A stretch of 64,000 bases of DNA from a virus: the IMG/VR virus record IMGVR_UViG_3300027797_000021, positions 1 through 64,000 of that record; one strand, given 5' to 3'. A program made the translations under genes and the position numbers. Shown one piece after another: positions 15,252-48,652 of this stretch; position 1 is the stretch's first letter, and the number at the start of each line of letters is the position of its first letter. Under the pieces are notes generated by a model that did no database searches, was not told the origin of the DNA, and saw only the letters and a program-made list of their open reading frames with translations.

Positions 15252-15882
15252 TTTTAGAACCTTTTATTTTTCTGTATAGACTTTTTCTATACTCAGAGTT
15301 TTTCTTTTTTGCTTCGTTGTAGAATGGATTATCTGTAAGTGATTTTTTTTGTTTCTTATCAGAGATATAATCACTGGACCTAATTGCCTCCAGCATTCTA
15401 TTATACACGCTGTCTTCAGTTAGGGAGTCGTTATAGCGAAAAACTATTAGAGCAATACCGTTATCTTTACAGTATTCGACTTTCTTTTCATCTCTCTTTT
15501 GGGCTTCTTCAAACTCATATTTAGATTCAAAAAATCTACTGGTGTAAAAAAAATGCTGACGTCCATGATATTCTGCCGCCAACTTATACGAGGGACAGTA
15601 AACATCAAATCTTAGCCTATCATCAATGTGATATTCATTTACTATTTCTTCACCTGGAAGGATCTTTTGCATGATCTGAGTTAGAGCTGTCTGACCTCTA
15701 GACATTTTTTTTCTAGATTCTTTCAACCAAGATAAACCTAATTGATTTATCTTTTTGTTGACTTCATTAACTGAGACATCTAGCTCTCTAGCTATTGCAC
15801 TAATTGATAAGCTTGTCTCTAGTAAGAGATCGATCAAAAACTGTACATCATCTTCTTCTAGTTTATTCTTTTTATCTTTCAT
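15226..15882 (-). CDS. HTH plus Vsr/DUF559-like endonuclease
   Basis: SISAIARELDVS HTH; LRFDVY..KLAAEYHGRQH..QKRDEKK..C..NGIALI. Confidence 0.75.
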   Translation of the reverse strand: MKDKKNKLEEDDVQFLIDLLLETSLSISAIARELDVSVNEVNKKINQLGLSWLKESRKKMSRGQTALTQIMQKILPGEEIVNEYHIDDRLRFDVYCPSYKLAAEYHGRQHFFYTSRFFESKYEFEEAQKRDEKKVEYCKDNGIALIVFRYNDSLTEDSVYNRMLEAIRSSDYISDKKQKKSLTDNPFYNEAKKKNSEYRKSLYRKIKGSKIDDNRRNL

Positions 15883-16520
15883 GCTACTGGCTGAGGATAT
15901 GTAACCTTGCTCAAACTAAGTGTTTTGCCAAAATCTATGGTTGACATATTTAAGTTCTCCCATATTTTTGACATTAAAGCTAGACCTAATACTCCACAGT
16001 CCATAATGCAATAGTCAACTCCGCCTTCAAACTCTGCGAGTTGTGCATATATGCTATCAATTTTTTCATAATAATTAGTATAAGCTACGTTGATGATGTG
16101 AGTATTGTTTCCAAAGTGTTTTTGAATTATCTTTTTATCATGAAAAGTAATAACAACACTAGGTGTATTCTTAATGTAATAATTGACTGTTGAATTATAT
16201 ATCTCTTTATTATTCATGTAATAATATTCAAAGATATTAGAATAGTAATACTCTCCATTTTTATGGAGGCCTATCTTATAATGCTTACCGTCTTCGATGT
16301 CAGATACTAGCGAATGTGAAATTGCTTTCATTACATTTGGATCTGTATTCTTTAATGATGAGACTACGCTCTTTGCAAAATGACTTGGAAAAGAATTGTC
16401 CGAGTTTTTACTTAGGGCAATTATTGCTGATTTAGGAACATTGATGTATGAAAATTTTTTCTTCTTTTCCATAGCTGATGTTAAGTTGATGATGGACTGT
16501 GCTTGATTTAAAAATGTCAT
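15879..16520 (-). CDS. GT-D-fold (DUF1792-like) glycosyltransferase domain protein
   Basis: C-terminal IMDCGVLG.AL...IW....STIDFGK resembles the GT-D signature; adjacent to a GT2 gene. Confidence 0.55.
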   Translation of the reverse strand: MTFLNQAQSIINLTSAMEKKKKFSYINVPKSAIIALSKNSDNSFPSHFAKSVVSSLKNTDPNVMKAISHSLVSDIEDGKHYKIGLHKNGEYYYSNIFEYYYMNNKEIYNSTVNYYIKNTPSVVITFHDKKIIQKHFGNNTHIINVAYTNYYEKIDSIYAQLAEFEGGVDYCIMDCGVLGLALMSKIWENLNMSTIDFGKTLSLSKVTYPQPVA

Positions 16521-16529
16521 ATTTTCCTA

Positions 16530-17222
16530 TTAAATTCCAAATGTTCCCCAGTCAATTAAGACTGGGTTACTGTCCAATATTGAGTTGATATGGCCAAGAT
16601 TATGAAACTCTCCGCCATCTATTTCTGTATATCTTTCATGCTTTATTTGCTTATCTTCATCTAAGATATAACCTAGATGTTGCATTACTAGCTTAGAGTC
16701 TTTCCAAAAGTTACCTTGTCTCATCCAATCAACTACATAGGTAGGTTCTGAACCGCAAGCCAATTTTTTATTTGCAAATCCGCCACCCTCTACAAATCTA
16801 AAAATTCTAGAGCTATTGTTTGGCGCCCAAAGCTTGTCTACTCGATATTGATTTTCATTCCACATATGATAAAATCTTACGTTAACTACATCCTGTGGAG
16901 ATTGACTCAGTACTGTTCTAATGTCAATATTTTCCAAATGAAAAAGCTTTTCATCACAGTCAATTGCAACAATCCAATCACCTTTTTTGGCGAACTTTTC
17001 CATATTGCCCCAGGCATATGCTCGAAGCTTAGCTTCGTGGACCTTAAAGAGTGGCTCTGGTGACTGAAAAACTTCTGCGTACTTTGCAGCTATTTCAGGA
17101 GTATTATCAGTAGAGCAGTCGTCTGTGAAAATAATTTTGTCAACTTGACTGCTAAGTTTTTGAAGAACATCTTCTAAAAATCTAGAAGATTCATTGCGGC
17201 CTATCATTTGTGCATAAATCAT
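16530..17222 (-). CDS. Glycosyltransferase family 2
   Basis: RNES, DDCSTDNT, IDCDE (DxD), HLGY. Confidence 0.88.
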   Translation of the reverse strand: MIYAQMIGRNESSRFLEDVLQKLSSQVDKIIFTDDCSTDNTPEIAAKYAEVFQSPEPLFKVHEAKLRAYAWGNMEKFAKKGDWIVAIDCDEKLFHLENIDIRTVLSQSPQDVVNVRFYHMWNENQYRVDKLWAPNNSSRIFRFVEGGGFANKKLACGSEPTYVVDWMRQGNFWKDSKLVMQHLGYILDEDKQIKHERYTEIDGGEFHNLGHINSILDSNPVLIDWGTFGI

Positions 17223-17237
17223 TATTGTCCTAAGGGT

Positions 17238-17273
17238 AAAAAAGATTGAGGGGAGAGATCCCCCCCTCAATCT
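17238..17273 (-). terminator. Rho-independent terminator
   Basis: AGATTGAGGGG...CCCCTCAATCT followed by a T-run on the minus strand. Confidence 0.8.
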
Positions 17274-17299
17274 AAATTGAATACGATACGAAAGTTATT

Positions 17300-17494: not shown

Positions 17495-17510
17495 TTTAGT
17501 CCTTTCTAGA

Positions 17511-17915
17511 CTATTTTGATGGATAATTGACTGCGATATATTCTATCGCATCTTGCATTGATGGTGCAAGCTTTGTTGCCATGTATTTTAGATAGACTCT
17601 ATTTTTATTGGAGTCACAGCAGAAGACAACTGCTGGCTGATTGTTGAATTTAGCCCAAGCCAACTCAAAGTCAGTACCTATATACGCGCGATCTTGTAAC
17701 ATATACTCTACCAGAATGATATCTGCTCTGCGTTGCATGAACAAATTTTTCTCAACAATTTCTTCTGGTTCCTGATAGCCTACGTCTACAATACTCATTG
17801 GATCCAACACGTCATAGCCTGCAAGGTGCAAAGCTCTTGTTGCAGACTTGCGCCAAAAACGACCATAATCTTCAACGCCCTCAATTGCTCCGGAAAGAAA
17901 TACTTTAAGAGGCAT
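17511..17915 (-). CDS. Nucleoside 2-deoxyribosyltransferase / nucleotide N-hydrolase-like protein
   Basis: KVFLSGAI, VLDP, ADIILV, GTDFELAWA. Confidence 0.78.
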   Translation of the reverse strand: MPLKVFLSGAIEGVEDYGRFWRKSATRALHLAGYDVLDPMSIVDVGYQEPEEIVEKNLFMQRRADIILVEYMLQDRAYIGTDFELAWAKFNNQPAVVFCCDSNKNRVYLKYMATKLAPSMQDAIEYIAVNYPSK

Positions 17916-18324
17916 ACGCTACTCCTGGCCAATAATATTCTAAATCAATTGCTTCATCAAAATATTGAGAATAGTATCCAAAATCTTTACGTAGAAGATT
18001 CGATCTGTGCGATCTATGAAATTCATTATTACCAAACCACGTTGGCATAATTATAGAGCTTGGTTCTATTTCTTCATAAGACATATTATTATTATATCCT
18101 CTACGAACCCATTCGCGTATAGTTGTGTTTTGATATAGCTTTAGGGCGGATTCATAACCGGTCCACATTAAGGTAACCGGATGATTACGCCACCCCGTGG
18201 TCTTAGTCCTATTTAATAAAACGTTAAGAACTTGAAAACTTTCTACACGTTGTTTCCCGAGACGACGATAATCTAATACTTCTACAGACTTTTGAAAATC
18301 TGCATACGGTAGAAATGTCTGCAT
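17905..18324 (-). CDS. Pyrimidine-dimer DNA glycosylase (DenV)-like / MSMEG_6728 family protein
   Basis: MQTFLPY..F..LD.RRLGKQRVE, HP...MW.GY, SHRSNLLRKD, YYWP. Confidence 0.88.
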   Translation of the reverse strand: MQTFLPYADFQKSVEVLDYRRLGKQRVESFQVLNVLLNRTKTTGWRNHPVTLMWTGYESALKLYQNTTIREWVRRGYNNNMSYEEIEPSSIIMPTWFGNNEFHRSHRSNLLRKDFGYYSQYFDEAIDLEYYWPGVAYAS

Positions 18325-18325
18325 T

Positions 18326-18727
18326 TTAATCCTTTTTGAATTCGGTAAATGTTTTGTCGCCTACGCCAAAGTATTCTCTAGCAAGACCAGATGCTATTAT
18401 ATCGTCATTGAGACATTCTCCAACGTTATTCCAAACTTTTCCAAGGATTCTGCCATACTTTTCATTCTTGTCAAGAATTGTTTCAATTTTAATTTTATGA
18501 CCAGCCTTAGTTAACCATTGATCTGTAAATTCTTTAGCGGCTAAACCCATCTTTTTTTCTTCAAGATTAGATGTTCTGCTTTCGGGTGTATTTACACCAT
18601 ATAGCCTAATGCTTTTTGGGCCAAACTTAACTTCAAATCCCAAATCAACAATAACTTTGAGAGTATCACCGTCGACCACCTTAACGACTTCTGCGTTATA
18701 AAGGTATACATTAAATTTATCTGACAT
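18326..18727 (-). CDS. Thermonuclease (staphylococcal nuclease family), no signal peptide
   Basis: VVDGDT, IRLYGVNTPE, KYGRILG, LN..I..GLA. Confidence 0.92.
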   Translation of the reverse strand: MSDKFNVYLYNAEVVKVVDGDTLKVIVDLGFEVKFGPKSIRLYGVNTPESRTSNLEEKKMGLAAKEFTDQWLTKAGHKIKIETILDKNEKYGRILGKVWNNVGECLNDDIIASGLAREYFGVGDKTFTEFKKD

Positions 18728-18728
18728 A

Positions 18729-19520
18729 TTAATCTCTTTCTATTCCCATGTAGTCGCACGCTTTGCGAAATATTTGTTGACTTTCTTTGAACTTAGAATC
18801 TGCTTCTCCACCAACTACGGAAGACTTATGCCAGCTATGGCCAATGGAAACACTCCCGTCATAAACTACATTATATCCTAAATGTCTTGCAAAGTATGAA
18901 CACCAGGTTTCTTCGTAGTAGTGAGGAGTCGGAAGAAAAGCTCCAGTTGCACCCGGATACATTTCTTGATACTTCGGATGATTTGTCAATGCATTCCATA
19001 CTTCTCTTCGTATAAAATACGCTGAGCCTGAAACTGTTACGCAATTGACCCTATCTCTATGAAGTGAATCTTGAAGATCCAGCTCATGCCAACCACGATG
19101 CTTTGGAGCAATATTCGTACCAACAATTCCAGCGTGAGTTATGTGTCCGCTCTCGTTTCTTTGCTTGGGACCCAAGATGTGAATGTCTGGATTTTCATCA
19201 AATATATTTTGGATTTCAACTAGACTAGAAGTGCTCATCCATACGTCAGCGTTTAACAAACAGATTATATCTGCAGATCCTTTTGCAGCTAATTGATTAC
19301 ATGCTGCTGAGTAACCAATGTTGTCATTATGGTAAAATTGTTTAATTTTGTAGCGTTGATAATTATATTTTAGCCATTCAACACTATCGTCCTGAGAGTC
19401 ATTGTCTGCTATATATAGATTCCATACCTTAGGATTCTTATGCGCATCGTTGTGCAGGCAGTCTAGAAACCTATTCAGCAGAGGTCTTGTATTATAGTTA
19501 ACTATACATAGATCTATCAA
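18729..19520 (-). CDS. Glycosyltransferase family 2 (WbbL-like)
   Basis: IVNYNT, DNDSQD, NIGYSAACN, LLNAD, SGSAYFIRR, YYEET. Confidence 0.9.
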   Translation of the reverse strand: MIDLCIVNYNTRPLLNRFLDCLHNDAHKNPKVWNLYIADNDSQDDSVEWLKYNYQRYKIKQFYHNDNIGYSAACNQLAAKGSADIICLLNADVWMSTSSLVEIQNIFDENPDIHILGPKQRNESGHITHAGIVGTNIAPKHRGWHELDLQDSLHRDRVNCVTVSGSAYFIRREVWNALTNHPKYQEMYPGATGAFLPTPHYYEETWCSYFARHLGYNVVYDGSVSIGHSWHKSSVVGGEADSKFKESQQIFRKACDYMGIERD

Positions 19521-25809: not shown

Positions 25810-27063
25810 TTAGTTGTATTGAATAATTAAATCAGACAAAACAGGTGCGGTTGTGTCGTTTGCCATATTAAGAGTAATTTCAATCCATACGTGGTTATTG
25901 GCTCCTGGATTATCCAGGCTATAGGTTCCACCATTGTCATATATAATTCTATATTCAAAAACATTGCCTATTTGACTTAGGGGTACATTATATATTTTCG
26001 GCGTAACATTAGTTATTTCTTCAATTACGTCACCAGTCTTTGGGGTATATTTTATTATAGTTCTTCCAGTGGGTAGAAATTTATCATATCTTATGTCTAG
26101 GTCCGAAAGACCATAGGTATATATGTAGTTTCCAAGTTCTGTAAAGTAATTTTTTTGATTAAATTTTATTCTTATGGCAGTAATATCTGTACTCGGGAAT
26201 TGATAACATAGGGGTCCGGAGTTCTTTACTGAGTCTGCACCTGAGGTATTCCATCCTCCGGGGGCAACTTTCCCAATTGCCGAAAGATCACCATCGTAGT
26301 ATCCCTTAGAATTGAGTGGTATCCATGTATCAGTATCTGACAGTGATGGATCTGTATTGGTAGTATATTCTATTGAGTAAATTTCTACGCCAAATGCTGG
26401 GAATGGATTGAGTTTAATTGCATTTGTTTTGCTTGATCCTGATATTTCAGGAGACACTCTTACGTAAAACATCATCTGAGCTCCAGTTATTGGATTACTA
26501 GGAGAGATTACTGTTCTTTTCCAAACCTTATCAGGAGAATCTAGAATAGCATTATACATGGGGGTTGAGTCAATGATGGCTCCATTAGTGTCAACTCCAG
26601 CAAAGCTCAGACTAAGCATAGCCTTAAAGTAGTCCGGGACGATCTGTCCGACACCCGGCTGTCCAAATTTAAGTTTTGAAAAAGATCCGCTAGAAACTTT
26701 GGGTAGAGAGATTATATTGTATGTTGGATCAAAACTTAATAGTTCAGTACCTGATACGGCAAAGCTTGTCCCGATAAAACTAGAATAATCTAGCTGAGAA
26801 AATGAGTGAATAGATAGAGTATTACTTTCAGACTCTAGTGCCTTGATTCTGTCGGAAATATCATTGATGGCGTTTGCCAAAAAGGTGTGATCCTTAAGAA
26901 CGCGCTCAAAAGCTGCAGACAACTTTGTGTCAACCATATTTGATTTATTATACAAATACACTAAGTCTTGATAGTTCTCTTCTATTCTGGAATTATAATC
27001 AGAACTATCAACAGGGCCATTGTATTTGTAATCTCTTTTTTTAGTTTTTAAAATGTCTGACAT
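25810..27063 (-). CDS. Virion structural protein (coiled coil plus beta-sandwich), paralog 1
   Basis: Shares D...W, GL.DL.I and C-terminal P.L motifs with 29031, 31172 and 33378. Confidence 0.7.
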   Translation of the reverse strand: MSDILKTKKRDYKYNGPVDSSDYNSRIEENYQDLVYLYNKSNMVDTKLSAAFERVLKDHTFLANAINDISDRIKALESESNTLSIHSFSQLDYSSFIGTSFAVSGTELLSFDPTYNIISLPKVSSGSFSKLKFGQPGVGQIVPDYFKAMLSLSFAGVDTNGAIIDSTPMYNAILDSPDKVWKRTVISPSNPITGAQMMFYVRVSPEISGSSKTNAIKLNPFPAFGVEIYSIEYTTNTDPSLSDTDTWIPLNSKGYYDGDLSAIGKVAPGGWNTSGADSVKNSGPLCYQFPSTDITAIRIKFNQKNYFTELGNYIYTYGLSDLDIRYDKFLPTGRTIIKYTPKTGDVIEEITNVTPKIYNVPLSQIGNVFEYRIIYDNGGTYSLDNPGANNHVWIEITLNMANDTTAPVLSDLIIQYN

Positions 27064-35982: not shown

Positions 35983-38760
35983 TTAGTTCCAGTCTTCTCC
36001 AGCTATATCCTGGAGATCAAAGACAACTCCAGCTGTAAGATTATTTTGAATTATACTATATATTTCTTTTTCATCAATAAAATTATCTTTAACTTCTTTT
36101 GGTATTCTAATTATAACATATCCACCCTTAGTATAAGTGTCTCCCTGTGCAGGATATGTGTCCCAGTAGGAAAGTATTTCATCTATACTTTCAATTATTT
36201 CCGAGTTTTGAATAGACGCCTTTACTCCGCCACCCCTTAGTCTTAGGTCTGCCAATTTTGGATTTTGCCTATTGGGATCGTTTGTTACGTATGTAATAGC
36301 TATCATTAAAGCAAATGGATCATAATTGATGGAGAGTATGTCAAAAATTGTTGGATCATAAGTAAAGTTTACACTCTGAGTATAATCGTGATCTAATATT
36401 TCTGTGTATTCAACTGATTGTGGATTCAGATTGCTATATGTTTTTTTATATATATTTTTTGGAGTTATATATATATAAAGTGGCTTATCAAATTCAATAA
36501 CATCTGCGTTTAATAGGGGGTTTAGCGGAATCGGATCTCCATCTACCTGCCTTAATAAAATGTTTCTATTTTCGGTTGTATAACAAACCTTAATAAGGGA
36601 ATTGCTTGATGGAACTAATGGACGTTTAAAAGTTATTACCCCGGTATAAGAGTTTATATCTTTAATTAATCGGTATGGTATTTCCGCCCAGTCGCTATCT
36701 ATTGTTTGTTTTGTAAATACTTTAATTTCACTCTTAATTAATCCAGATATGGATGATGAATAACTTGTTGGATGATTCCAATTTAATATTGGAGTTCTCT
36801 TTACTTTTATATTTTTACTATCTAATATTATAGGATATTCATCAGTAACATCATAGTGCCCATGACCATATATCTTTGACCAAGAAACATTTTGTTGATC
36901 CAATGTACTATATTGTGCCAGTAAAGACTGATCTTTATAATCTTTCTTCCAGTCAAACCATTGATTTCTTGGAGAAATATATATCTCTTTTGAAAAAGCG
37001 CCGGGTGAGACGGGGAGCTCCCATGAGTCAAATTTAGATAAATTCGGACTTATTTCATTAACCTTAATAGAGCTTGAGGAATTATATCTTACGGAATATA
37101 CTGGAACTAGATACTTTAGCGGTACTTTACTTGGTATGAATGTACTAGAATTATTAAGACCAAAAAACTCATTGTCACCAGGTGTTCCATCTGCATCTAG
37201 TGCGCATATTCCAATGAATATATTTTCAACATTTCTGCTTAAAGAATTTTCTGATCTTGAATAAAAGTCAAGATAGTTTAAATAATTTCCTAAGAATTCT
37301 TTTTGTCCTATATCATAGAATCCATATTTAACGCCATCATCTGGAAACTCACTAGTAATTGAAAAGTATCCATACTGAAGATCTCTCTCTTCTAGAACGT
37401 CTCTATTATGAGATGGAATATCATTGATCGCAGATTTTATTTGGGTCATAGTTGGAATACCTTTTGCAGTGCCGTCTGCGTTACAGAAAAGCAGGATCCC
37501 CTCTCCGTAATTTATAGTGTTCTTATCGATTGCTGATAATAAGGTTCCGGATACTGTCTTCATTCGATTATTAGATAAATCATTTGAAATTGTTGTCACT
37601 AATGAATCGCCGTAATAGGTTGCTGATGTTTCAACCTTAAGTATGTTATTATCCTTAGAAACGGAAACTGGGGTGCCCTCCAATGTAACTTGCCCCCTAG
37701 ATATAACATTATCCAAAGATATGTCCGATAGCACTATAGGCTGACCTGTATTTCTGTTGCTAAACGAATCGACTATTATGTCACCATTATTATAATTGAC
37801 ACTATTTAAAGTTAATTCATCTTCAGGAGTAAAAATAATAGAAGTATTTTCTCCCTCAACTTTTGAGGGATACTCAATTTTGGAAATATAGTGATTACCG
37901 TTTCTCAATGACGTTAAAGACTTAATCCTGCCTAAGTTATCTAATGGCACTAGCTTGGATGTGATTGGGGAAATATTTTGCACAGTGCCAGAAATCGATA
38001 CGGTTACCGTAATTAGCTTGGGTGGAAAGTAGTCTTTATATCTTGTCTCAGTATAAGGTTCTCCAGGCTTACTCATGCCTTTTACGTCTATTCTTGCGAT
38101 AGAGAAACCTTCAGCTTCTCCAAAACCAGGTATTTTATTTCCAATAATATTAACAAAAATATATTTAGCGTCTTCCCTACTTCTACCGTTCATGGGAATC
38201 TTTATTTCCCCCGACTGTGCCGATAAATCTAGTAATTCAATTCCGCCAAATTTGAAAATATCAGTTTGATCAGTGGACGACCATCCAATTGCTGCAGCTT
38301 TGAATTGCCTCCATTTCGGATCTGCGTCTGCTGTAATAATAATCTCATTAACTGTCAATAGACTATCTGGTATCTTAAAAAAAATGTAATCAGACGCTAT
38401 TGATGGGCCGACCGTTCCGCTAAAACTTAGTTTTTTATATGATCTATCAGAGTTAATAGAAGAGGTGGTGCCCATATTTTCTACGGCAATGATGTACTTT
38501 CTTATGTCTGGAGAGGCAAAGTTTCTCCAGCCCTCAAATACTTCTGGGGTTGACGCCTTCATATTTAACCAGAACTTAGCCAAGTACCATTTAGTTTCAC
38601 TATCTACTTTGCCGTCAATATATATTTGATTATTATTTGCCTGAAAGACCTTAACGGAAGCGTTTGTTACTGGACCATATAGCCCATCAATAGCCTTATT
38701 ATAGTATCCATTAGCCGCTAATGTATACTGTATGTATTTTACGTATTCATGTGATGACAT
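35983..38760 (-). CDS. Virion protein with N-terminal peptidoglycan-binding domain
   Basis: VKYIQYTL...GYY...IDGLYGPVT..SVKVFQ...IDGKVD.ET; C-terminal DLRLRGGG motif. Confidence 0.78.
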   Translation of the reverse strand: MSSHEYVKYIQYTLAANGYYNKAIDGLYGPVTNASVKVFQANNNQIYIDGKVDSETKWYLAKFWLNMKASTPEVFEGWRNFASPDIRKYIIAVENMGTTSSINSDRSYKKLSFSGTVGPSIASDYIFFKIPDSLLTVNEIIITADADPKWRQFKAAAIGWSSTDQTDIFKFGGIELLDLSAQSGEIKIPMNGRSREDAKYIFVNIIGNKIPGFGEAEGFSIARIDVKGMSKPGEPYTETRYKDYFPPKLITVTVSISGTVQNISPITSKLVPLDNLGRIKSLTSLRNGNHYISKIEYPSKVEGENTSIIFTPEDELTLNSVNYNNGDIIVDSFSNRNTGQPIVLSDISLDNVISRGQVTLEGTPVSVSKDNNILKVETSATYYGDSLVTTISNDLSNNRMKTVSGTLLSAIDKNTINYGEGILLFCNADGTAKGIPTMTQIKSAINDIPSHNRDVLEERDLQYGYFSITSEFPDDGVKYGFYDIGQKEFLGNYLNYLDFYSRSENSLSRNVENIFIGICALDADGTPGDNEFFGLNNSSTFIPSKVPLKYLVPVYSVRYNSSSSIKVNEISPNLSKFDSWELPVSPGAFSKEIYISPRNQWFDWKKDYKDQSLLAQYSTLDQQNVSWSKIYGHGHYDVTDEYPIILDSKNIKVKRTPILNWNHPTSYSSSISGLIKSEIKVFTKQTIDSDWAEIPYRLIKDINSYTGVITFKRPLVPSSNSLIKVCYTTENRNILLRQVDGDPIPLNPLLNADVIEFDKPLYIYITPKNIYKKTYSNLNPQSVEYTEILDHDYTQSVNFTYDPTIFDILSINYDPFALMIAITYVTNDPNRQNPKLADLRLRGGGVKASIQNSEIIESIDEILSYWDTYPAQGDTYTKGGYVIIRIPKEVKDNFIDEKEIYSIIQNNLTAGVVFDLQDIAGEDWN

Positions 38761-41700: not shown

Positions 41701-41936
41701 CCATTTAACCTTCTTAAAATACCTAGCTCATCTGCGTACATGATTTCTGAGGAAGATGTTTCTTTAATCTTATTTTCTATAATTATTTCTGAAACATCTG
41801 TAATAAATACATTTTTTGCCGGACTAATTGATTCCGAAGTAAACCAAGATATACCTGCGGCATGCAACGGGACCTTTGCCCCTATCTTTGTTGCTTTTTC
41901 CTTGCCAGAAGTAGTTAGATTGTCAAATATTTCCAT
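38790..41936 (-). CDS. Large virion structural protein (possibly the N-terminal half of a split gene)
   Basis: 1048 aa in the baseplate block; TAATG coupling to the upstream gene. Confidence 0.7.
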   Translation of the reverse strand: MEIFDNLTTSGKEKATKIGAKVPLHAAGISWFTSESISPAKNVFITDVSEIIIENKIKETSSSEIMYADELGILRRLNGSSSIATENITISNSFVHKKTVSELLDLNQVNPDSFSHYFYTSRYFAIAPSSISLISLDDYISDDIIISLGIKVLDEFGKDYINPITNKRKYKILLEPFRTENNTSLPEIPYRILVFLDPQQPINLKLMYNKVESDELGNVFGFQLRYSETINPVKYFKELPEESFVIDPNYYGSKNFSIKKIDQKYTNINLNNQPIENGYQVIVPSKAIKDYRTYEVFNWRIIARTKRSLNFNQVYYGVESDISSGTFSRTVKAAVLCTSSNSQNTNNGNTNPYAIYRLENSPFNLTRLKFTNPLAQNGINKNQADYWKVNIDTTDISGYDVLVWSPDAEITREQAEKINDFTGNKFGTLILDLSLCPNASKLNAGTQLAMSDGATANTVDMIDTNYLVDSTKNGGWSLSDNIFEKDYYGIFGSRLINGNASSPKTYKYFSSLANDNVFLKAGATTSAQYPIGAIIPASTNLVDTLSKGNIIATTFNLLAYCNSVYNLAYPDKVVDSNNAVSHYGNIENDNNVFSAIVEGPFKLLFNAVSYGIYCKSQSERKPTTASSLINFVTDWDSSWVMYSDALEDSEKILFENVDSESVYARNLTKDTSSNSPSIFTYLKTKMLEKLPEFQRNLLAELSVEDITFYVEVTNPDVGFVNAEVIPSPSITENIPSSYSLYKFVVSGAARGPLLAYTKKYSPSLQRIAGLGPHLLVERPAGTSSTRSLNSGIGFSSGFNSYPFKLSSKFTSFEGMDEPYGFDCDLSLTATIAIDGKGIELIPDIVTIIPESQPFIAEAKNFQSAIDDLNLQRSTKVSESSNVFPYTGDIDIHGITGIWKQTVDGGGDPGDEDVIDWAAIAAYIASLPPDTTSVPPVVPIADSTASRPDIIRVENVGVIAPGTNPAIITLTRFKGGTISTDAGLALYTQFSVRKLANQGEFGKYNIIFVFSTANFASSTIVKTLFNQTQAQLYSLGLGTFPASFISYNP

Positions 41937-44900
41937 TATTCTTCCTCATGGTCTGGATGCAATTGCGAGTAATCAGATATATAGTACGGAGTAGAGCCCA
42001 TCAAACCCATTTGATATTGATCGTATCTATTTAGCGGAATCCATTTTGGAGGTGACCAATTTGGTGTCGAATTATATGCGTAAATAATCTCTGCATTGGA
42101 GTGCTCATATGCAAAGCTGGGAGTTGCTAATATCTGTGAGTTTTGTTGCCTATTTATTGTATATATATTTGGTAGTGGGATATCATTCTCATCACTATAT
42201 TGGATAGAATCGTATGACTCATGCCAGTAAATAACATCTCCAGATATAGTAACGTCATTGGACAAAAGAACTTCTCCACTAGAAGTCAAAATAGACGTAA
42301 TAGCTTCTTCGTTAGAGATATTTACCCGAGCAAACCAGTATCCCGGCGTGCTTGAGTCACTGGCTGTAATTTCATTAGATATGGTAAATTCTCCATTTGA
42401 ATTAGTATTAATCACATAATCTGGCGTAGCTGCAAACAAGTCTTTTAACGTCCTGCCGACATTCCAGGAAAGCTGGACTTCATTATTAAAGGGTTTATTC
42501 TTCCAGTAAATTTTTCCAGATATTGATACCTTACTGATGCCATCGGCATTTATGTTAATGTCGGACGCAGCTGCCTTAACTGACAAATTAAATGGGTCAT
42601 TTCTATTTATTGCAAATGGCACCTTTAAGATGTATCCTTCGGAAGAGCTATTTTGCTCACCATTCGGGGTGGCAGATCCTATTCCAACAATATCAATTAC
42701 TCCCTCGCGATATACTGCTGGTATGTCACCATCATATCGAATGATGGCTGTTGCTAATCCATTATCGCTTGTCGTTATGAATGATGGTGTAGCTGAAATT
42801 AAATCACCAGAAATAGCAAATGTTTGACCTGGCTTTAGATTATATTGATTATCGTGAGATACCAAAGATAAATACATTAAATCTGAAGTAGAGTCAGAGA
42901 TGTATGCTGGTGATAAATGAGCTTCAACATGCGAAAATGGATAATCTTCTTTACTGACATATATGTATCCTTCATCTATCGGATTTAAGGATGAATTCAG
43001 ATGTAAATTAATTGGATATGTAATGTCGTTAATTGAATTTTCATAAGTAATATTATATGAAGAATTTGAGTTTGGAGTTGAGCTGAAATAAATTACTGAA
43101 TTATATGCGTCAGCAATAGGGTCATAAACGTCATTATCGAGATACCATGCATTATTTACCTTATACGAAACTAAGTATTCCCTATCGTATATGAATGGTG
43201 TGGCTGCACTTTGGGGTGTAGCTTCATTGGTCAGTGTAATTTGATTTTCGCTTACAAGTATAGTATCTAATACTTCTTTGCCAGTATAATTATCTAAGAC
43301 TGATACATTAGATATGTCTTTATACGCTAAATAAATTATTTCATTTGCGCTGGCATTAACTATTTCAGAGTTTTCAAAAGTTAATTTTCCAGGAGTAGCG
43401 GCGTCTTCAAATGCCATATTTCTATAGTTCTGACCATCAACATCAACAAGTACGGGGGCGCCATTCCTAGGCGTATTTAAAAGGTTGACACTGAAGAATC
43501 TTCCACTAGAAGATTCCGTAACTGGATTTGCATATATGTAATAATCATTTTCTTCCAGGTATATCCAACCCGTGTGTAGTGCTGATCGCTGTTCTTGAAT
43601 TAAAAACTTATCTTTTTTAGCATGTACGTCTATGTAAGTTTCTACATCTTGACTAAACGAAGAATTTAAATTATTTAAAAGCGCATCTTGAGATTCAACG
43701 TATGCTTGAACTGAATTTTGTGCAGTATTTAATGTAGCGTCTTTTATGATATATACATCATCTTGGAGAAGGCCGAAAGATTCTTTACTCAAATAAATTT
43801 TACTTAAAAAAGAATCAGTATTAAAATAAGAATTTAGCGGATTCTCCCCGGTCTCATATACGTTATCTAGCGAATCTATGTATCCACCAAAAAGATTAGG
43901 AGTTGTTTGGGCTGTAAACGATTCATAGGCATCAAAATATATTGGATAATAACTTGATGTAGCTGATTCGATCAGCAAGTAGTGTGGTGTTGACGCGTAA
44001 TTAATTGTTGCAGAGTTAAAATAATTAGATGATCCGAGCGATATATTTGAAGAGCTGAATGGTTTCCATTTTATGTTTGGAGAAGATGGAACTAAATACT
44101 GCGAATTGTCATCTGGATTAATGGTTCTCCCGCCAATAATATTTGTTTCTATATCTTCTGATCCAAAGTATCCAACCCCATTTGGAGCGCTGACGTCTAC
44201 ATAAAGATACTGAGGCGTTGCGTCGAATGGTAAGATTACTCTATCTAACATCTCATTTACGTAAATGGACTTTGTCGAGGTACCTAAGATGGTAGGATCA
44301 TTTTGCGGATTCAGACTAAAAGTAGATTGTAATGGGTTCGTGTTTAAGGATGCTATCTTTGTTGAGTAATCGGTAGATCCAATTTTTATATTAGCGTCTT
44401 GGGGGCGCCTATTTGGAGTGGCCATTGATATTTGAGAATTGACAGTTGGGTTAACGTAGTAACTTGGAGTACTAGTGGAAAATGAAGCACGATAGCTTGC
44501 AGTTGCAAGAGAAGTATCGTATGCTTGGGACACATAATTCCATCCGCCATTTGAGAATACTATTTTTACTGAAGAAGCGTCATTGAAGGTAATACTATTA
44601 GTTATAGGAGACGCGTGAGTATTGAGGTAGATCTGATTATATACTTTATCTTTGAATACTACATCAGGAATGGTATTGCCCTCTTGATCAAATATTCTAA
44701 TATAGTTAAATTCTGGACTAGCAGAACTTGTAGCTGGTAATCTATTGCCAACATAAAAATCTTCTCTATTAGTATAGTTTAAATTTGAATAAAATGTAGA
44801 AGGAGTGGTGTAGTTATCATGTGGTGGCATTATTATTTCATATGTCAGCCCAACTCCAACATCGGCTTTATTGACATTATTTACTTTCCCAGTGCCTGAG

Positions 44901-47404
44901 ATATGAAGACCATCGGATTTAGTTACAACTCTTAAAGCCAAGTTATTGGTGGGTGTTGTGCCACCAAGTTGTGCGCCAGGAATAGTAATTACATTACCTA
45001 CTTGGTAGTTTGAACCACCGCTGGTTACGGTAACTACAATGTTTCCAGGAACAAAACCATTAAGCGACCCAGTTTTCTGAATAGTAAATACTGCGCCAGA
45101 ACCAGCAGTGCCAGAGGATCCCCCAGTGACTGTGCCCGTTACTCCAGTAACGGTTCCCGACCAACCTGCAGTGCCAGTTCCAGTCCCAGGTCCAGTCGCA
45201 GTAAAAACAGTACCAATCGTATTATTTGCTGCGCCAATTGCGGTAAAGTCCGTTGTACCAACGGTGACTATAGTGTAACTCTGTCCACTGGCAAAATTAC
45301 CTGCAGAGGTGACATTGTTCCCCGTAAAACTTGCAGTGCCAGTTCCAGTTCCAGGTCCAGTCGCAGTAAAAACAACACCAACCGTATTGCTTGCTGCGCC
45401 AATTGCGGTAAAGGATGTATTTCCAACTGCGGAAATAGTGTAAACTCTTCCAGTCACAAAACTACCTGCAGTGACTGTAACTCCCGCAACGGTAAATGTT
45501 GTACTGCCGTTAGTATCAAGTGCAGACTTTGGGTTTTGGTTACCCGAAAAATAAAACTGAGTAGTGCTGGCTACGGTAACTGTTCTTGTAGTATCATAGG
45601 AACTCGGTATTGTACCAGTTATCGCAACGGTGTCACCGTTACTAAGGCCATGAGGTGCTGATGTAACGTAGGATGTTGTAGCAAAGGTTGTAGAGTAACT
45701 GGCGCCAGATATGTTAACAAACTTTCTTCTGCCAGCATTATAGTCTTGGACTGTTCTTAGGTATCTAACGTACCATGAATAGTCCACAAGGATTGGCGTG
45801 TAGGCATACTCTATTCCGGTCTTATGTACTCCGGCTATAGACATTGACCCATCGAATGATATAGTGGATTTCTCTAATGATTCTAGAATGAATCTTCCGT
45901 CAGAAAAATCTCCAATACCTGGCTGATAATATTCCGATAGCGGAGATGCGTCCGTATCATATATGGCAGGTATTCTAGATATACCTTCTCCGTCCATCCC
46001 AGAGTAGTCCCAAGTTCCCTCACCCCATCTAACATATCCTATATTAGATGGGTATCTATTATTTAAGTCTTCTACTAGATCTTTGAACATTTTTTCTGGC
46101 TTACCAGAAGGGGAAAAATACGGTGTTGTTTTTTCTAAATCTGAAATTTCATAAATACTTGGAAAAGCTTGAGTGCTGTCAGAGTCTACGTCTACGCCAT
46201 AAGCCTTCCATATGTCCAACTCTCTTCTTAGTGTTCTCTTTAGACCGTCACTATGGATTCCTGGAATATTCTTAGATACATCTAATATTCTTTGCTTGTA
46301 TCTTAAGTTAGTTTCTTTATATAGTCTTTCTAGGCCTACTCTTGCGCCAAATTCATCAAAGTTATTAAATATATTAACTGCATATTGCTCGTAAGGAGTT
46401 CCGTTTATGGAAAGCGTTACATACTCTCTCATGACAAGGATCTGTTTATCCATTGGATTATAATAATAAACATGATCTGTTATTCTACTTCTGTGAAAAT
46501 CTGATAAAGAATTTACAGGTGAAAGGATAACATCATCGCCTACAATGGTCTGGAGATTAGTTGGCACATCATAAGAGACATAGGCCCATGCAAGCATGTT
46601 TTCATCGGCGCTATTAATGTACGCATTAATATCCCTTAGGTCGATCTCCGAAACAATAGCATCTATGTTTTCTTGAACCAATGCTGTCAGAAATTTACCA
46701 CCTGTAGACTGAGGGATAGCTAAGGAGGGGGTAGCGGGCTCTAGGGAGTCATCAAATAACTTTGTCCACGTTGGAAATCTTCTTAAGATATTCCTTGCTG
46801 AATTTGATATTACTGGAGACGTAGGCTCGTGTATGCCTATTTCCAAATAAAATAGCAGTCCCAGCGTGGATACGTCTATATTCTCAGAGAATATTTCAAG
46901 TTCTATTTTTATCCATGGCTTAGCGTTTCTAATAAATATAATATTAGAATCAAACGATAGAGAAGACTTTAGCCATGGACCATCTTCCGTATCTGACTCA
47001 TGCATCTGGATATTGAAAGAAGGTACTTCAAATCCTGGTAAGTTTGTAAAGGTATGTTTATAGGCTAGAACGTCTATTCTTGAGCTAGTATCCAGGAAGC
47101 GTATTAAGTCAGGCGTAGCTGGCTCATAAACTATTTCACCGGCATTAGTTACGTACAGTGCATTTGCGCTAAGGGGCGTCGACATATCATTAGAATAGGA
47201 TGGTGAGGTTACTTCCGTGCCCACGTAAGTGTTGTCACCGATTAGATTAAGGCCATAGCGAGATCTGGTATATGAGTAGTTATTGTACTGACTATTGCTA
47301 TATAGGTTTACGGGATTAGTACTTGTCCATAGCGAATTTCCCGTTAAAGAGTCATATGTTTTAGTGAAATCTCCACTTTTAAAAAGTAACAAGTACTGCT
47401 TCAT
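41936..47404 (-). CDS. Baseplate wedge (gpI/gp7-like) mega-protein with an internal Thr/Gly-rich insert
   Basis: FDEFGARVGLERLYKETNLRYKQRIL resembles the wedge motif; directly downstream of baseplate J. Confidence 0.7.
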   Translation of the reverse strand: MKQYLLLFKSGDFTKTYDSLTGNSLWTSTNPVNLYSNSQYNNYSYTRSRYGLNLIGDNTYVGTEVTSPSYSNDMSTPLSANALYVTNAGEIVYEPATPDLIRFLDTSSRIDVLAYKHTFTNLPGFEVPSFNIQMHESDTEDGPWLKSSLSFDSNIIFIRNAKPWIKIELEIFSENIDVSTLGLLFYLEIGIHEPTSPVISNSARNILRRFPTWTKLFDDSLEPATPSLAIPQSTGGKFLTALVQENIDAIVSEIDLRDINAYINSADENMLAWAYVSYDVPTNLQTIVGDDVILSPVNSLSDFHRSRITDHVYYYNPMDKQILVMREYVTLSINGTPYEQYAVNIFNNFDEFGARVGLERLYKETNLRYKQRILDVSKNIPGIHSDGLKRTLRRELDIWKAYGVDVDSDSTQAFPSIYEISDLEKTTPYFSPSGKPEKMFKDLVEDLNNRYPSNIGYVRWGEGTWDYSGMDGEGISRIPAIYDTDASPLSEYYQPGIGDFSDGRFILESLEKSTISFDGSMSIAGVHKTGIEYAYTPILVDYSWYVRYLRTVQDYNAGRRKFVNISGASYSTTFATTSYVTSAPHGLSNGDTVAITGTIPSSYDTTRTVTVASTTQFYFSGNQNPKSALDTNGSTTFTVAGVTVTAGSFVTGRVYTISAVGNTSFTAIGAASNTVGVVFTATGPGTGTGTASFTGNNVTSAGNFASGQSYTIVTVGTTDFTAIGAANNTIGTVFTATGPGTGTGTAGWSGTVTGVTGTVTGGSSGTAGSGAVFTIQKTGSLNGFVPGNIVVTVTSGGSNYQVGNVITIPGAQLGGTTPTNNLALRVVTKSDGLHISGTGKVNNVNKADVGVGLTYEIIMPPHDNYTTPSTFYSNLNYTNREDFYVGNRLPATSSASPEFNYIRIFDQEGNTIPDVVFKDKVYNQIYLNTHASPITNSITFNDASSVKIVFSNGGWNYVSQAYDTSLATASYRASFSTSTPSYYVNPTVNSQISMATPNRRPQDANIKIGSTDYSTKIASLNTNPLQSTFSLNPQNDPTILGTSTKSIYVNEMLDRVILPFDATPQYLYVDVSAPNGVGYFGSEDIETNIIGGRTINPDDNSQYLVPSSPNIKWKPFSSSNISLGSSNYFNSATINYASTPHYLLIESATSSYYPIYFDAYESFTAQTTPNLFGGYIDSLDNVYETGENPLNSYFNTDSFLSKIYLSKESFGLLQDDVYIIKDATLNTAQNSVQAYVESQDALLNNLNSSFSQDVETYIDVHAKKDKFLIQEQRSALHTGWIYLEENDYYIYANPVTESSSGRFFSVNLLNTPRNGAPVLVDVDGQNYRNMAFEDAATPGKLTFENSEIVNASANEIIYLAYKDISNVSVLDNYTGKEVLDTILVSENQITLTNEATPQSAATPFIYDREYLVSYKVNNAWYLDNDVYDPIADAYNSVIYFSSTPNSNSSYNITYENSINDITYPINLHLNSSLNPIDEGYIYVSKEDYPFSHVEAHLSPAYISDSTSDLMYLSLVSHDNQYNLKPGQTFAISGDLISATPSFITTSDNGLATAIIRYDGDIPAVYREGVIDIVGIGSATPNGEQNSSSEGYILKVPFAINRNDPFNLSVKAAASDININADGISKVSISGKIYWKNKPFNNEVQLSWNVGRTLKDLFAATPDYVINTNSNGEFTISNEITASDSSTPGYWFARVNISNEEAITSILTSSGEVLLSNDVTISGDVIYWHESYDSIQYSDENDIPLPNIYTINRQQNSQILATPSFAYEHSNAEIIYAYNSTPNWSPPKWIPLNRYDQYQMGLMGSTPYYISDYSQLHPDHEEE
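45166..45480. repeat. Tandem duplication with ~165-nt period (AG.F..G..YTI..VG.T.FTAIGAA.NT.G.VFTATGPGTGTGTA x2)
   Basis: Near-identical gcagtgccagttccagtNccaggtccagtcgcagtaaaaaca and ttgctgcgccaattgcggtaaag blocks 165 nt apart. Confidence 0.9.
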
Positions 47405-47482: not shown

Positions 47483-48652
47483 TTAATAAGTTGTCGATCC
47501 CATTATAACAGAATTTATACTAACAGTTCCAGCTGATATATACTTTTTAATGCCTTGTAACGAAAAATCTTGTAGTGGCAGCTCTTTTCCATCGGCGGTA
47601 ATGCTAGATACAATTGTATTTCTTATATAATCAGAAGATCTGTTAATTTGGTTTTCAATTTGGGTCAAGGACATGGTATCCCCTATGGTTAGTGAATTTA
47701 AATACCTCTTAACGAATAATGATGCTTGATTTGCAATGCCGGAAGCCAAGGTCGCAGATACACCCATGGGGATTCTAATGGTAGCTGCAACTGAAACTGT
47801 AACTTTTTCTGCTATTCTAACATTGAATTTAACACCTACTGGCTTGACTGCGTTAACTGCTAATAAAATATTTTGAGGAAGATTACCTAATCCACTACTT
47901 GTTTCTGGGACTACTACAATATCGCAAGATCCTATTCCATAAGAGCCTTCTCTAATTCTAACATCTCTTACGCCCCTCACTCCTAAGGCAGCAAACCTTA
48001 CTGATTCTGCACTCCCCACTGCCTTTGACTTAATCGACGCAATTATTCTTCTTCTAAAATTAGAATCAGATTCTGAATTTATATTAGAATATACTTCTTT
48101 TGGATTATTACAAAATATGATTACTCCAGCTGGGGAAAAGAAATTGTGCTTTGTCAAAGAATTAACTGGAGCTACGTACGCATTGTCCGAGAAATTTGGT
48201 TCTACCCTACCGTAGGCTCTGGTTGAACCTGTTGGAATTACTACATCACCAGCTAGTTTAAAGCCATATTGTTTTGATATAAAATTTGACACGTCATTAT
48301 AAACCAGTACATCTTTTGGAATAGTTATAGCCGAGCTATGAGCTTTATTTATGAAGAATTCTATATTGAAGGACTGTCTATCTTGAGAAGCGTAATCTGT
48401 TATACTCTTTCTTGTTATCCCATAAAGATCGCCAATCAGATCTAGATTCCTACCAGAGGCACTAGATAGGTCCCCTTGCGTTATGTTGAACCTTAGTGCT
48501 TCGTAAAGATCTGATATTTCAGAACTAAAAGCTTCCGCAAAAGCTCTAGCAATGGAACCTGGATAGACTGCCGATATTGCTGCGTCTTTTTGTAAAGAAT
48601 TCAATATACTTACTAATATATCTGATTTACTTTTAATACCATAAACGGACAT
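47483..48652 (-). CDS. Baseplate J-like (gp6) wedge protein
   Basis: PGSIARAF, ASGRNLDLIG, ESDSNFRRRI, GVRDV, KPVGV. Confidence 0.9.
   Translation of the reverse strand: MSVYGIKSKSDILVSILNSLQKDAAISAVYPGSIARAFAEAFSSEISDLYEALRFNITQGDLSSASGRNLDLIGDLYGITRKSITDYASQDRQSFNIEFFINKAHSSAITIPKDVLVYNDVSNFISKQYGFKLAGDVVIPTGSTRAYGRVEPNFSDNAYVAPVNSLTKHNFFSPAGVIIFCNNPKEVYSNINSESDSNFRRRIIASIKSKAVGSAESVRFAALGVRGVRDVRIREGSYGIGSCDIVVVPETSSGLGNLPQNILLAVNAVKPVGVKFNVRIAEKVTVSVAATIRIPMGVSATLASGIANQASLFVKRYLNSLTIGDTMSLTQIENQINRSSDYIRNTIVSSITADGKELPLQDFSLQGIKKYISAGTVSINSVIMGSTTY

What the first reader, a model, noticed from the sequence alone, without database searches (positions are those of the whole stretch)
41936..47404. 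One virion protein studded with (A/S/T)-T-P motifs, in a phage encoding three glycosyltransferases: candidate sequon-directed virion modification system
Seen: by manual count the 1822-aa wedge protein has 11 ATP (EPATPD, EPATPS, SMATPN, FDATPQ, DAATPG, NEATPQ, SAATPF, ISATPS, GSATPN, FAATPD, ILATPS), 7 STP and 4 TTP, plus several ASP/TSP. They are dispersed in unrelated contexts and use varied codons, so this is not a DNA repeat. From rough residue frequencies fewer than one ATP would be expected, and neighbouring large virion proteins show almost none. The window also encodes two GT2 enzymes and a GT-D-like protein (15879-19520). Established: Thr near Pro is a typical actinobacterial O-glycosylation context, and some actinobacteriophages glycosylate virion proteins with their own GTs. 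Inference: xTP is a selected recognition motif for glycosylation (or phosphorylation, or docking of an accessory protein) that decorates the baseplate.
Basis: partly seen in the sequence, partly recalled or inferred. Interest (0 to 1): 0.8.

Follow-up and report, generated by a model that had tools for sequence, protein, structure and literature searches.

The report
Ala/Ser-Thr-Pro tag on phage baseplate arm
One 1822-residue baseplate arm protein of an uncultured ~200-kb water phage carries 22 scattered copies of the tag Ala/Ser/Thr-Thr-Pro where chance gives about two. The way the tag is kept, shared and lost across relatives suggests an enzyme reads it, most likely one of the phage's own sugar-adding enzymes, but no chemistry has been done.

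Summary
The ORF at 41936-47404 (minus strand) has 11 ATP, 7 STP and 4 TTP. That is 22 [AST]TP against 2.3 expected (Poisson 8e-15), and 20,000 shuffles never exceeded 9. All 22 sites use different 9-mers.

About 200 homologues carry 14-30 tags each. Around 15 positions are conserved down to 28% identity, and other positions turn over. Tags lie in loops of different kinds. Split homologues in Bacillus phage 0305phi8-36 and a Moorella phage have none. Several tagless lineages nest inside tagged clades. There, Ala and Pro persist at background rates, but the tag Thr survives in only 3 of 40 cells (background 52%). So Thr is constrained only where something reads it.

ATP is also 2.5-4.6 times enriched, and unusually conserved, in other virion-module proteins, but not in non-structural ones.

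Two soluble GT2 genes are syntenic in every tagged genome whose GT genes I could place by orthology, and absent from tagless outgroups. The closest solved relative of one is GmaR, the Listeria flagellin O-GlcNAc transferase.

O-glycosylation of Thr is the best reading (about 0.5) but is circumstantial. The GTs sit among nucleotide-metabolism genes and could modify DNA instead. The host is unknown, and the phage is not an actinophage. This scan has already noted the same tag on more than ten related genomes.

The parts
41936..47404 (-). Gene of the 1822-aa tagged baseplate arm protein (P0001). The 22 [AST]TP tags have their Thr at residues 76, 97, 225, 427, 817, 867, 979, 996, 1063, 1139, 1168, 1337, 1396, 1402, 1443, 1539, 1579, 1660, 1686, 1761, 1780 and 1805.
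45755..47404 (-). Residues 1-550: N-terminal region homologous to the separate small virion proteins ORF162 of phage 0305phi8-36 and CDS49 of the Moorella phage. It lies directly downstream of the Baseplate_J gene, so it is probably the baseplate attachment part. Its tags lie in strand-strand and helix-helix loops.
   Evidence: no significant fold match
44855..45754 (-). Residues 551-850: lineage-specific insert with Gly/Thr-rich repeats. It is covered by only 7-27% of homologues and carries one tag (TTP, Thr 817).
   Evidence: (coverage profile)
41939..44854 (-). Residues 851-1822: a string of Ig-like beta-sandwich domains, homologous to the C-terminal part of the 0305phi8-36 tail fibre protein ORF163. 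It carries 17 tags, all in coil at strand boundaries.
   Evidence: AF2 model with pLDDT 78; Foldseek top matches are intimin/invasin-type Ig arrays
47483..48652 (-). Baseplate_J (gpJ/gp6-like wedge) gene immediately upstream.
   Evidence: PF04865 E 4e-9; phrog_6 E 2.5e-34
16530..17270 (-). GT2a: a soluble family-2 glycosyltransferase and the candidate reader of the tag. The likely true start is Met17 (230 aa). It has DDxxD and DCD motifs.
   Evidence: PF00535. The profile's best PDB match is the GmaR GT domain at E 1.3e-9, with the next match at 6e-5. Orthologue found in all 8 tagged genomes tested. No TM segment. Start.
18729..19520 (-). GT2b: a second soluble family-2 glycosyltransferase. 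It is core and syntenic with GT2a.
   Evidence: PF00535 E 2.5e-14; orthologues in G001, G002, G005, G011 and G012
15879..16520 (-). GT-D-like protein, found only in the first major clade. It is a possible glycan-elongating enzyme.
   Evidence: PF22882 at 36 bits against a cut-off of 27. Orthologues in G001, G002 and G005. The Pfam model found it in only 2 of 5 genomes. BLAST found none in G011 or G012.
25810..27063 (-). 417-aa virion structural protein with one xTP site, conserved in all four genomes compared.

Best explanation
[Ala/Ser]-Thr-Pro is an acceptor tag. I propose that its Thr is O-glycosylated in the cytoplasm by the phage's own soluble family-2 glycosyltransferases before or during virion assembly. 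GT2a, which resembles GmaR, is the likely initiating enzyme. GT2b and, in this clade, the GT-D-like protein would extend the glycan. The main substrate is the long Ig-like baseplate arm, with about 20 sites in exposed loops. Minor substrates are a 257-aa protein encoded next to the capsid gene, the sheath and a few other virion proteins.

Shown: the excess of the tag; its conservation and turnover; its location in loops; its absence from outgroups; block loss in nested lineages with specific decay of Thr; enrichment of ATP in the virion module; and co-occurrence with GT2a and GT2b.

Inferred: What the glycan would do (shielding, solubility, adhesion) is not addressed by any data here.
For: (1) Excess: 22 tags against 2.3 expected. 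The same holds in 83 of the 85 proteins of the first homology search, in 72 of 77 IMG/VR loci, where the 5 low counts were neighbouring ORFs picked as longest, and in most of the 127 representative clusters.

(2) Selection acts on the tripeptide. About 15 positions are kept in at least 70% of 29 non-redundant members at 28-50% identity. T1443 and P1444 are invariant. A, S and T interchange at position -1, whereas the GTP, YTP and NTP sites are poorly kept. There are 65 site clusters in all and about 20 per protein, so sites also turn over.

(3) The fold does not require the tag. ORF162 and ORF163 of phage 0305phi8-36 and CDS49 and CDS50 of the Moorella phage align across tag positions without TP and have 0-1 tags.

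(4) Tagless full-length members (0-3 tags) nest inside tagged clades. P0168 is sister to P0169 and P0163 with support 1.00, and P0172, P0152, P0144, P0194 and P0131 form a grade. At 7 core tag columns these proteins keep a small residue at -1 in 55% of cells and Pro in 52%, which is near background. They keep Thr in only 3 of 40 cells, against 165 of 316 for other consensus Thr (Fisher 1.5e-8).

(5) Tags sit in different structural contexts: before beta strands, after strands, and between helices.

(6) ATP is 2.5-4.6 times enriched in other structural-module proteins of four genomes (P 0.007 to 2e-7) and not in non-structural ones. Of 24 xTP sites in other core proteins, 11 are kept in all genomes, against 2.6-4.3 expected. 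The 257-aa protein next to the capsid gene has three invariant ATP.

(7) GT2a and GT2b are core and syntenic, about 22-27 kb from the arm gene, in G000, G001, G002, G005, G011 and G012. GT2a is also present in G013:C28 and G014:C1. Both are absent from the complete genomes of 0305phi8-36 and the Moorella phage and from the tagless G008.

(8) The GT2a profile's best solved relative is the GT domain of GmaR, a flagellin O-GlcNAc transferase, at E 1.3e-9. The next match is four orders of magnitude weaker (function from PMC9638930). All three GTs lack TM segments, and GT2a keeps DDxxD and DCD motifs.

(9) No other protein-modifying enzyme turned up among the 20 core non-structural proteins I scanned.
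Against: No glycan has been measured.

The GT genes lie in the replication and nucleotide-metabolism block (helicase, NDT-like protein, nuclease, dCMP deaminase, ThyX, RNR). In other phages, DNA-sugar genes sit in just such a place (PMC12838424).

The GT-tag co-occurrence rests on deep splits only. I could not test it in the nested tagless lineages.

The match to GmaR covers only the roughly 120-residue nucleotide-binding half, and GT2a has no TPR domain.

Where tagged proteins keep Pro but lose Thr, the replacements are mostly S (26), N (15) and D (10). That is the pattern of an ST/Asx-Pro capping turn, so part of the conservation may be structural.

Most tag positions are fixed rather than shifting.

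G008 has two other GT2 genes and no tags, so GT2 genes alone do not predict tags.
Confidence: 0.5

Rival explanations
1. Something reads the tag, but not the phage GT2s and not with sugar. Candidates are a host enzyme, another modification of Thr or Pro (phosphorylation, hydroxylation), or a binding partner or chaperone that docks on A-T-P loops during assembly. On this reading the GT cluster glycosylates DNA or a host polymer.
For: The GTs lie among nucleotide-metabolism genes. Block loss could follow a host switch rather than a lost phage gene. P4H-type 2OG oxygenases are abundant in some relatives, with 7 copies each in G003-G005.
Against: The oxygenases are an accessory island. They are absent from the complete, fully tagged G002 and from the part of G000 that is held. 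No Pkinase was found in 5 genomes. GT2a and GT2b are the only recognisable candidate modifiers in the core set scanned, and GT2a is nearest to a protein O-GlcNAc transferase. SP is not enriched overall (10 observed against 10.3 expected), which does not fit a proline-directed enzyme that accepts Ser and Thr alike.
Confidence: 0.27
2. The tag is purely structural. It would be an ST-Pro capping turn with a small residue before it, favoured at loop-strand junctions of this protein family, and nothing reads it.
For: Every tag lies in coil, most of them 1-3 residues before a strand. Positions +2 to +6 show a strand-like alternation of hydrophobic residues. Most positions are fixed. Pro is kept more often than Thr, and the substitutes for Thr are mainly S, N and D.
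Against: Outgroup homologues with the same domains lack the tag. Nested tagless lineages keep A-x-P but put E, V, R, D, N, K or Y in place of Thr. Tags also occur between helices and in unrelated folds such as the sheath and the capsid-neighbour protein. Gly, which is common before caps, is 5 times depleted at -1, and K/R never occur at -3 in 570 sites. Other Ig-like arrays in the same genomes and in ORF163 are not enriched.
Confidence: 0.15
3. The excess is a by-product of composition, a DNA-level repeat, or common descent of a few sequences.
For: The protein is rich in S and T (11% and 9%). Many homologues are close relatives.
Against: The expectation from composition is 2.3 and the shuffle maximum is 9. 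The 22 sites use 22 different 9-mers. The excess persists in 29 members that share less than 60% identity with each other, and at 24-30% identity to the query.
Confidence: 0.01

Closest known systems
Virion O-glycosylation of mycobacteriophages (Che8 and relatives) by phage-encoded glycosyltransferases (Freeman et al. 2023, Cell Host Microbe; cited from my own knowledge, since only citing papers appeared)
   Same: Phage-encoded cytoplasmic GTs are proposed to put O-glycans on Ser/Thr of virion proteins.
   Different: In those phages glycans were measured on capsid and tail-tube subunits of actinophages, and as far as I know no short sequon was defined. Here nothing has been measured. The phage is an aquatic ~200-kb myovirus-like relative of 0305phi8-36. 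The main target is one baseplate arm, and a three-residue tag is defined by sequence statistics.
GmaR of Listeria monocytogenes, a GT2-type O-GlcNAc transferase of flagellin (PMC9638930)
   Same: It is the closest solved relative of GT2a by profile search (E 1.3e-9). It is a soluble GT2 that glycosylates Ser/Thr on surface loops of a protein destined for an extracellular assembly.
   Different: The match covers only about 120 residues. GmaR has TPR and anti-repressor domains. GT2a is a 230-aa protein with a different conserved C-terminal half. No A-T-P sequon is known for GmaR.
Glycosylation of serine-rich repeat adhesins (GtfA/B and later enzymes, including the GT-D enzyme dGT1/DUF1792); from my own knowledge
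   Same: GT-D folds are known from stepwise cytoplasmic O-glycosylation of a long adhesin. This window encodes a GT-D-like protein next to GT2a.
   Different: The GT-D-like gene is limited to one sub-clade. There is no GtfA/B-type GT4, and the substrate is not a Ser-rich repeat.
Sequon-directed cytoplasmic glycosylation of adhesins (HMW1C/NGT on N-x-S/T) and the preference of mucin-type GalNAc transferases for Thr followed by Pro; from my own knowledge
   Same: A short acceptor motif scattered over a long surface protein. Thr-Pro is a favoured O-glycosylation context.
   Different: The enzyme families and linkage chemistry differ, and there is no homology claim.
ORF162 plus ORF163 (tail fibre) of Bacillus phage 0305phi8-36, and CDS49 plus CDS50 of Moorella phage MTATph1
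   Same: Homologous virion proteins, with BLASTP E from 2e-12 to 3e-8 over the N-terminal region and part of the arm.
   Different: In those phages the protein is split into two genes, has 0-1 tags, and the genomes have no GT2 gene.

Membership tests
Phage-encoded virion O-glycosylation system | The phage encodes glycosyltransferases. | tested here: met
   Two PF00535 hits and one PF22882 hit above the cut-off. They are core and syntenic in relatives.
Phage-encoded virion O-glycosylation system | Virion proteins carry covalently bound glycans. | not testable with these tools
   The phage is uncultured and no proteomic data are held.
Phage-encoded virion O-glycosylation system | Modification depends on the phage GTs. 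| tested here: inconclusive
   A GT2a orthologue is present in 8 of 8 tagged genomes and absent from 3 tagless outgroups.
GmaR-type GT2 protein O-GlcNAc transferases | A GT-A (GT2) catalytic domain with Asp motifs. | tested here: met
   PF00535. D50, D51 and D55 and the DCD at 104-106 are invariant in 4 orthologues.
GmaR-type GT2 protein O-GlcNAc transferases | Closer to GmaR than to polysaccharide GT2s. | tested here: met
   The profile search of the PDB gives GmaR at 1.3e-9 and heparosan synthase at 5.8e-5. Only about 120 residues are matched.
GmaR-type GT2 protein O-GlcNAc transferases | A TPR domain for substrate recognition. | tested here: not met
   GT2a is 230-246 aa, and Pfam reports no domain other than GT2.
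GT-D fold glycosyltransferases (DUF1792 type) | A match to the family model above the curated cut-off. | tested here: inconclusive
   Pfam PF22882 gives 36.1 bits against a cut-off of 27. NCBIfam GT-D_rel gives 29 bits against a cut-off of 75. There is no DxD/DxE check and no PDB sequence match.
Structural ST/Asx-Pro capping turn | Ser, Asn or Asp can replace Thr. | tested here: met
   Where Pro is kept, the replacements are S 26, N 15 and D 10 out of 94.
Structural ST/Asx-Pro capping turn | The motif is needed wherever the fold is kept. | tested here: not met
   Tagless outgroups and nested tagless lineages keep the fold. There, E, V, R, K and Y replace Thr.
0305phi8-36-type baseplate/fibre module | Homology to ORF162 and ORF163 and a position next to the Baseplate_J gene. 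| tested here: met

The most novel reading that the evidence does not exclude
A widespread clade of uncultured aquatic ~200-kb phages uses a defined three-residue O-glycosylation sequon, [Ala/Ser]-Thr-Pro, read by a minimal GmaR-like GT2. The sequon is written about 20 times onto the baseplate arm and a few times onto head and tail proteins. Whole lineages switch it off as a block. I know of no earlier defined protein-glycosylation sequon in a bacteriophage.
Probability: 0.45. Interest if true: 0.85.

Novelty: new variant of a known kind. Interest (0 to 1): 0.72.

Why it matters
Phage virion glycosylation has so far been shown in only a few actinophages, and as far as I know without a sequon. 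A short, predictable tag together with a small soluble transferase would have three uses. It would let glycosylated virion proteins be predicted from sequence in hundreds of uncultured phages. It would give a simple pair to test in E. coli (a tagged fragment plus GT2a). And it could serve as a compact O-glycosylation tag for protein engineering. The block loss in nested lineages also offers a natural experiment on what virion glycans are for. If the tag proves to be structural, or read by something else, it is still one of the strongest tripeptide biases I have seen confined to a single protein family.

Tried and rejected
(1) DNA repeat or composition effect: rejected.

(2) Proline hydroxylation by phage P4H-type 2OG oxygenases. 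There are 7 copies in G003-G005 and 2 in G001, but none in the complete, tagged G002 or in the held part of G000. They form an accessory island, so they are not coupled to the tag.

(3) Phage Ser/Thr kinase: no Pkinase match in 5 near-complete genomes.

(4) GT2 as a Pfam family predicting tags: rejected, because the tagless G008 and G009 have two other GT2 genes each. Only the GT2a and GT2b orthologues track the tag.

(5) The GT-D-like gene as a universal partner: rejected.

(6) Sequence search of P0001 against the PDB gave nothing. Fold search of residues 1-550 gave no significant match.

(7) Fetching genomes of the nested tagless lineages failed. The single metagenome scan found only a tagged relative, on a record that is not searchable.

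(8) Host identity: two mis-binned phage contigs sit in a Cyclobacteriaceae MAG and an Iamiaceae MAG. These hints conflict, so the host stays unknown.

(9) Solvent exposure of the tags could not be computed, because the tools return no model coordinates. Only secondary structure was used.

(10) No complex prediction was run, since enzyme-substrate pairs are a poor use of that tool.

(11) The first Atlas call failed. The second showed only virus-specific GT2 clusters.

Full report
WHAT IS THERE

The ORF at 41936-47404 on the minus strand encodes 1822 residues. That makes 22 [AST]TP where composition predicts 2.28, and 22 of the protein's 25 Thr-Pro dipeptides follow Ala, Ser or Thr. The Poisson probability is 8e-15. 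In 20,000 shuffles the maximum was 9. ATP is the most over-represented tripeptide in the protein. The 22 sites use 22 different nine-base words.

No other ORF of the 91.6-kb record comes near this excess. The record is an IMG/VR contig, estimated 43% complete, with about 38% G+C. Its cultured relatives are distant: Bacillus phage 0305phi8-36 and Moorella phage MTATph1. It is therefore not an actinobacteriophage, and the host is unknown. The only hints are two mis-binned phage contigs, one in a Cyclobacteriaceae MAG and one in an Iamiaceae MAG, and they conflict.

THE PROTEIN

The gene follows a Baseplate_J gene. Residues 1-550 are homologous to the small virion proteins ORF162 of 0305phi8-36 and CDS49 of MTATph1. 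Part of the C-terminal half is homologous to the tail fibre protein ORF163 and to CDS50. So it is a fused baseplate-attached arm rather than a classical wedge subunit.

AlphaFold models built with family alignments give a string of Ig-like beta sandwiches for residues 851-1822 (pLDDT 78). Foldseek's best matches are intimin and invasin arrays. Residues 1-450 give a beta-sandwich plus helical region (pLDDT 71 over residues 1-550) with no significant fold match. Residues 551-850 are a lineage-specific insert.

THE TAG IN THE FAMILY

Of the 85 proteins from the first homology search, 83 carry 13-26 tags against 1-3 expected. The other two share only the insert. In 77 IMG/VR loci, 72 of the longest ORFs carry 14-30 tags. 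The five low counts were neighbouring ORFs that happened to be longest. Most of the 127 representative clusters found by phmmer in 1.8 billion proteins also carry the tag.

In 29 members that share less than 60% identity with each other, about 15 positions keep the tag in at least 70% of sequences. T1443 and P1444 are invariant. Ala, Ser and Thr interchange at position -1. The three Thr-Pro sites of the query that do not follow A, S or T are poorly conserved. There is also turnover: 65 site clusters in all, about 20 per protein, and two family-wide sites (near residues 405 and 414) that the query has lost.

The logo of 570 sites is as follows:
- Position -3: D, E, F or L, and never K or R.
- Position -2: G or S.
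- Position -1: A much more than S, and S more than T. Gly is 5 times depleted.
- Then Thr and Pro.
- Position +2: N, S, G or D.
- After that, a strand-like pattern of hydrophobic residues.

STRUCTURAL MOTIF OR READ TAG?

Several points favour structure. All tags lie in coil, mostly one to three residues before a strand. Pro is kept more often than Thr. Where Thr is replaced in tagged proteins, the substitutes are chiefly Ser, Asn and Asp, as in an ST/Asx-Pro cap.

Five points weigh against a purely structural role.

1. The outgroup homologues align across tag positions without Thr-Pro and carry 0-1 tags.

2. Full-length tagless members (0-3 tags) nest inside tagged clades on a tree of 106 family members. 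P0168 is sister to P0169 and P0163 with support 1.00. P0172, P0152, P0144, P0194 and P0131 form a grade around the tagged P0130, P0153 and P0127.

3. At seven core tag columns these tagless proteins keep a small residue at -1 in 55% of cells and Pro in 52%. Both are close to the retention of other consensus Ala (59%) and Pro (65%). Thr is kept in only 3 of 40 cells, against 52% for other consensus Thr (Fisher 1.5e-8). It is replaced by E, V, R, D, N, K and Y. So Ala-x-Pro has a lasting structural role, while Thr is constrained only in lineages that 'use' the tag. The cells are not independent: six related sequences across seven columns.

4. In the N-terminal region, tags lie between helices as well as between strands.

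5. The tag recurs in unrelated virion proteins. ATP is 2.5-4.6 times enriched in the rest of the structural module of four genomes (10-18 observed against about 4 expected). In non-structural proteins it is not enriched: 7-9 against 6-8.5 in the three complete genomes, and 0 against 0.6 in the held part of G000. Of 24 xTP sites in other core proteins, 11 are kept in all genomes compared, against 2.6-4.3 expected. That is 46%, against 19% for other Thr-Pro sites. A 257-aa protein encoded next to the major capsid gene has three invariant ATP. The sheath and a 288-aa virion protein, which ends in G-A-T-P-N-S, also have conserved ATP.

WHO COULD READ IT

All three lack membrane segments.

GT2a (16530-17270) and GT2b (18729-19520) are core genes. 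Their order is conserved, 22-27 kb from the arm gene, in both major clades of the family: G000, G001, G002, G005, G011 and G012. GT2a is also on the same contig as the arm gene in two further tagged phage contigs. Neither is found in the complete genomes of 0305phi8-36 and MTATph1, or in the tagless G008, which is 73% complete and has two other GT2 genes.

GT2a is far better conserved than the arm. It is 66-69% identical between G000 and the genomes (G002, G005) whose arm is 29-32% identical to it.

The best solved relative of the GT2a profile is the GT domain of GmaR, which adds O-GlcNAc to Listeria flagellin, at E 1.3e-9. The next match is heparosan synthase at 6e-5. The match covers only the nucleotide-binding half, and GT2a has no TPR domain.

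The GT-D-like gene is confined to the first major clade. In G011 and G012 a variable set of genes takes its place next to GT2a. That arrangement would suit a variable glycan built on a constant first step.

Other candidate readers did not hold up. P4H-type oxygenases form an accessory island that is missing from the complete, tagged G002. No protein kinase was found. Twenty further core proteins gave terminase, RecA, helicase, AAA ATPases and a ThiF-family protein, but no evident protein-modifying enzyme.

WHAT REMAINS OPEN

No modification has been measured.

The GT genes lie among helicase, NDT-like, nuclease, dCMP deaminase, ThyX and RNR genes. Phage DNA-sugar genes also sit in such a neighbourhood (PMC12838424). 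The GTs may therefore act on DNA.

The GT-tag link rests on deep phylogenetic splits. The decisive test is whether the nested tagless lineages have lost GT2a and GT2b. I could not run it.

Earlier notes of this scan report the same tag on more than ten related genomes. They say that one tagless lineage lacked two GT genes. I treat that as an unverified lead.

VERDICT

The tag is under selection and behaves as if something reads its Thr. O-glycosylation by the phage's GT2a and GT2b is the best-supported mechanism (about 0.5). Next come another reader (about 0.27) and a purely structural motif (about 0.15). Relative to published knowledge this would be a new variant of phage virion glycosylation, with a defined sequon.

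Noticed in passing
window 44855-45754 (residues 551-850 of P0001): A lineage-specific insert with two ~46-residue Gly/Thr-rich repeats (pattern ...FTAIGA..NT.G.VFTATGPGTGTGTA). At this position, homologues carry other modules, such as DUF1566, FG-GAP or CBM_4_9. This looks like a swappable receptor-binding cassette inside the arm.
   Followed up: partly
G005 184.7-198 kb (loci L106-L107); also G003, G004, G001: An accessory island with up to seven paralogous P4H-type 2OG-Fe(II) oxygenases (PF13640) is inserted in the structural module of some relatives. It is absent from G002 and from the held part of this genome. Its targets are unknown.
   Followed up: partly
L146 (G011 73.2-79.0 kb) and L147 (G012 117.9-123.6 kb): Between the HNH-like gene and GT2a, the second major clade carries a variable block of 6-8 genes, including an extra GT2. 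This window has the GT-D-like gene there. The layout resembles a variable glycan island beside a constant GT.
   Followed up: no
window 16530-17270: The longest ORF of GT2a starts at a TTG. Homologues and the ESM Atlas record start at Met17, giving 230 aa, so the real start is probably near 17222.
   Followed up: partly
L130 and L131: Phage contigs of this family (106 kb and 211 kb) are binned into a Cyclobacteriaceae MAG and an Iamiaceae MAG. They are probably mis-binned, and they give conflicting host hints.
   Followed up: partly
window 35983-38760: A 925-aa virion-module protein begins with a peptidoglycan-binding domain (PG_binding_1). It may be a tail-associated cell-wall-binding or lytic protein.
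   Followed up: no
L095:1093-1860 and L095:2237-3835 (G002): Core non-structural genes of the clade include a ThiF-family (E1-like) protein near an AAA+ ATPase. Their function in a phage is unclear.
   Followed up: no
L144-L145 (G008 78.7-90.6 kb): The tagless outgroup phage G008 has its own block of about 13 genes, including two GT2 genes, just upstream of its structural module. None of them has a homologue in this genome.
   Followed up: no
G000 80686-81552 (L129:5687-6553): A 288-aa virion protein ends in G-A-T-P-N-S. Its G005 orthologue ends in S-A-T-P-D-C. A tag at the very C-terminus is therefore conserved.
   Followed up: partly
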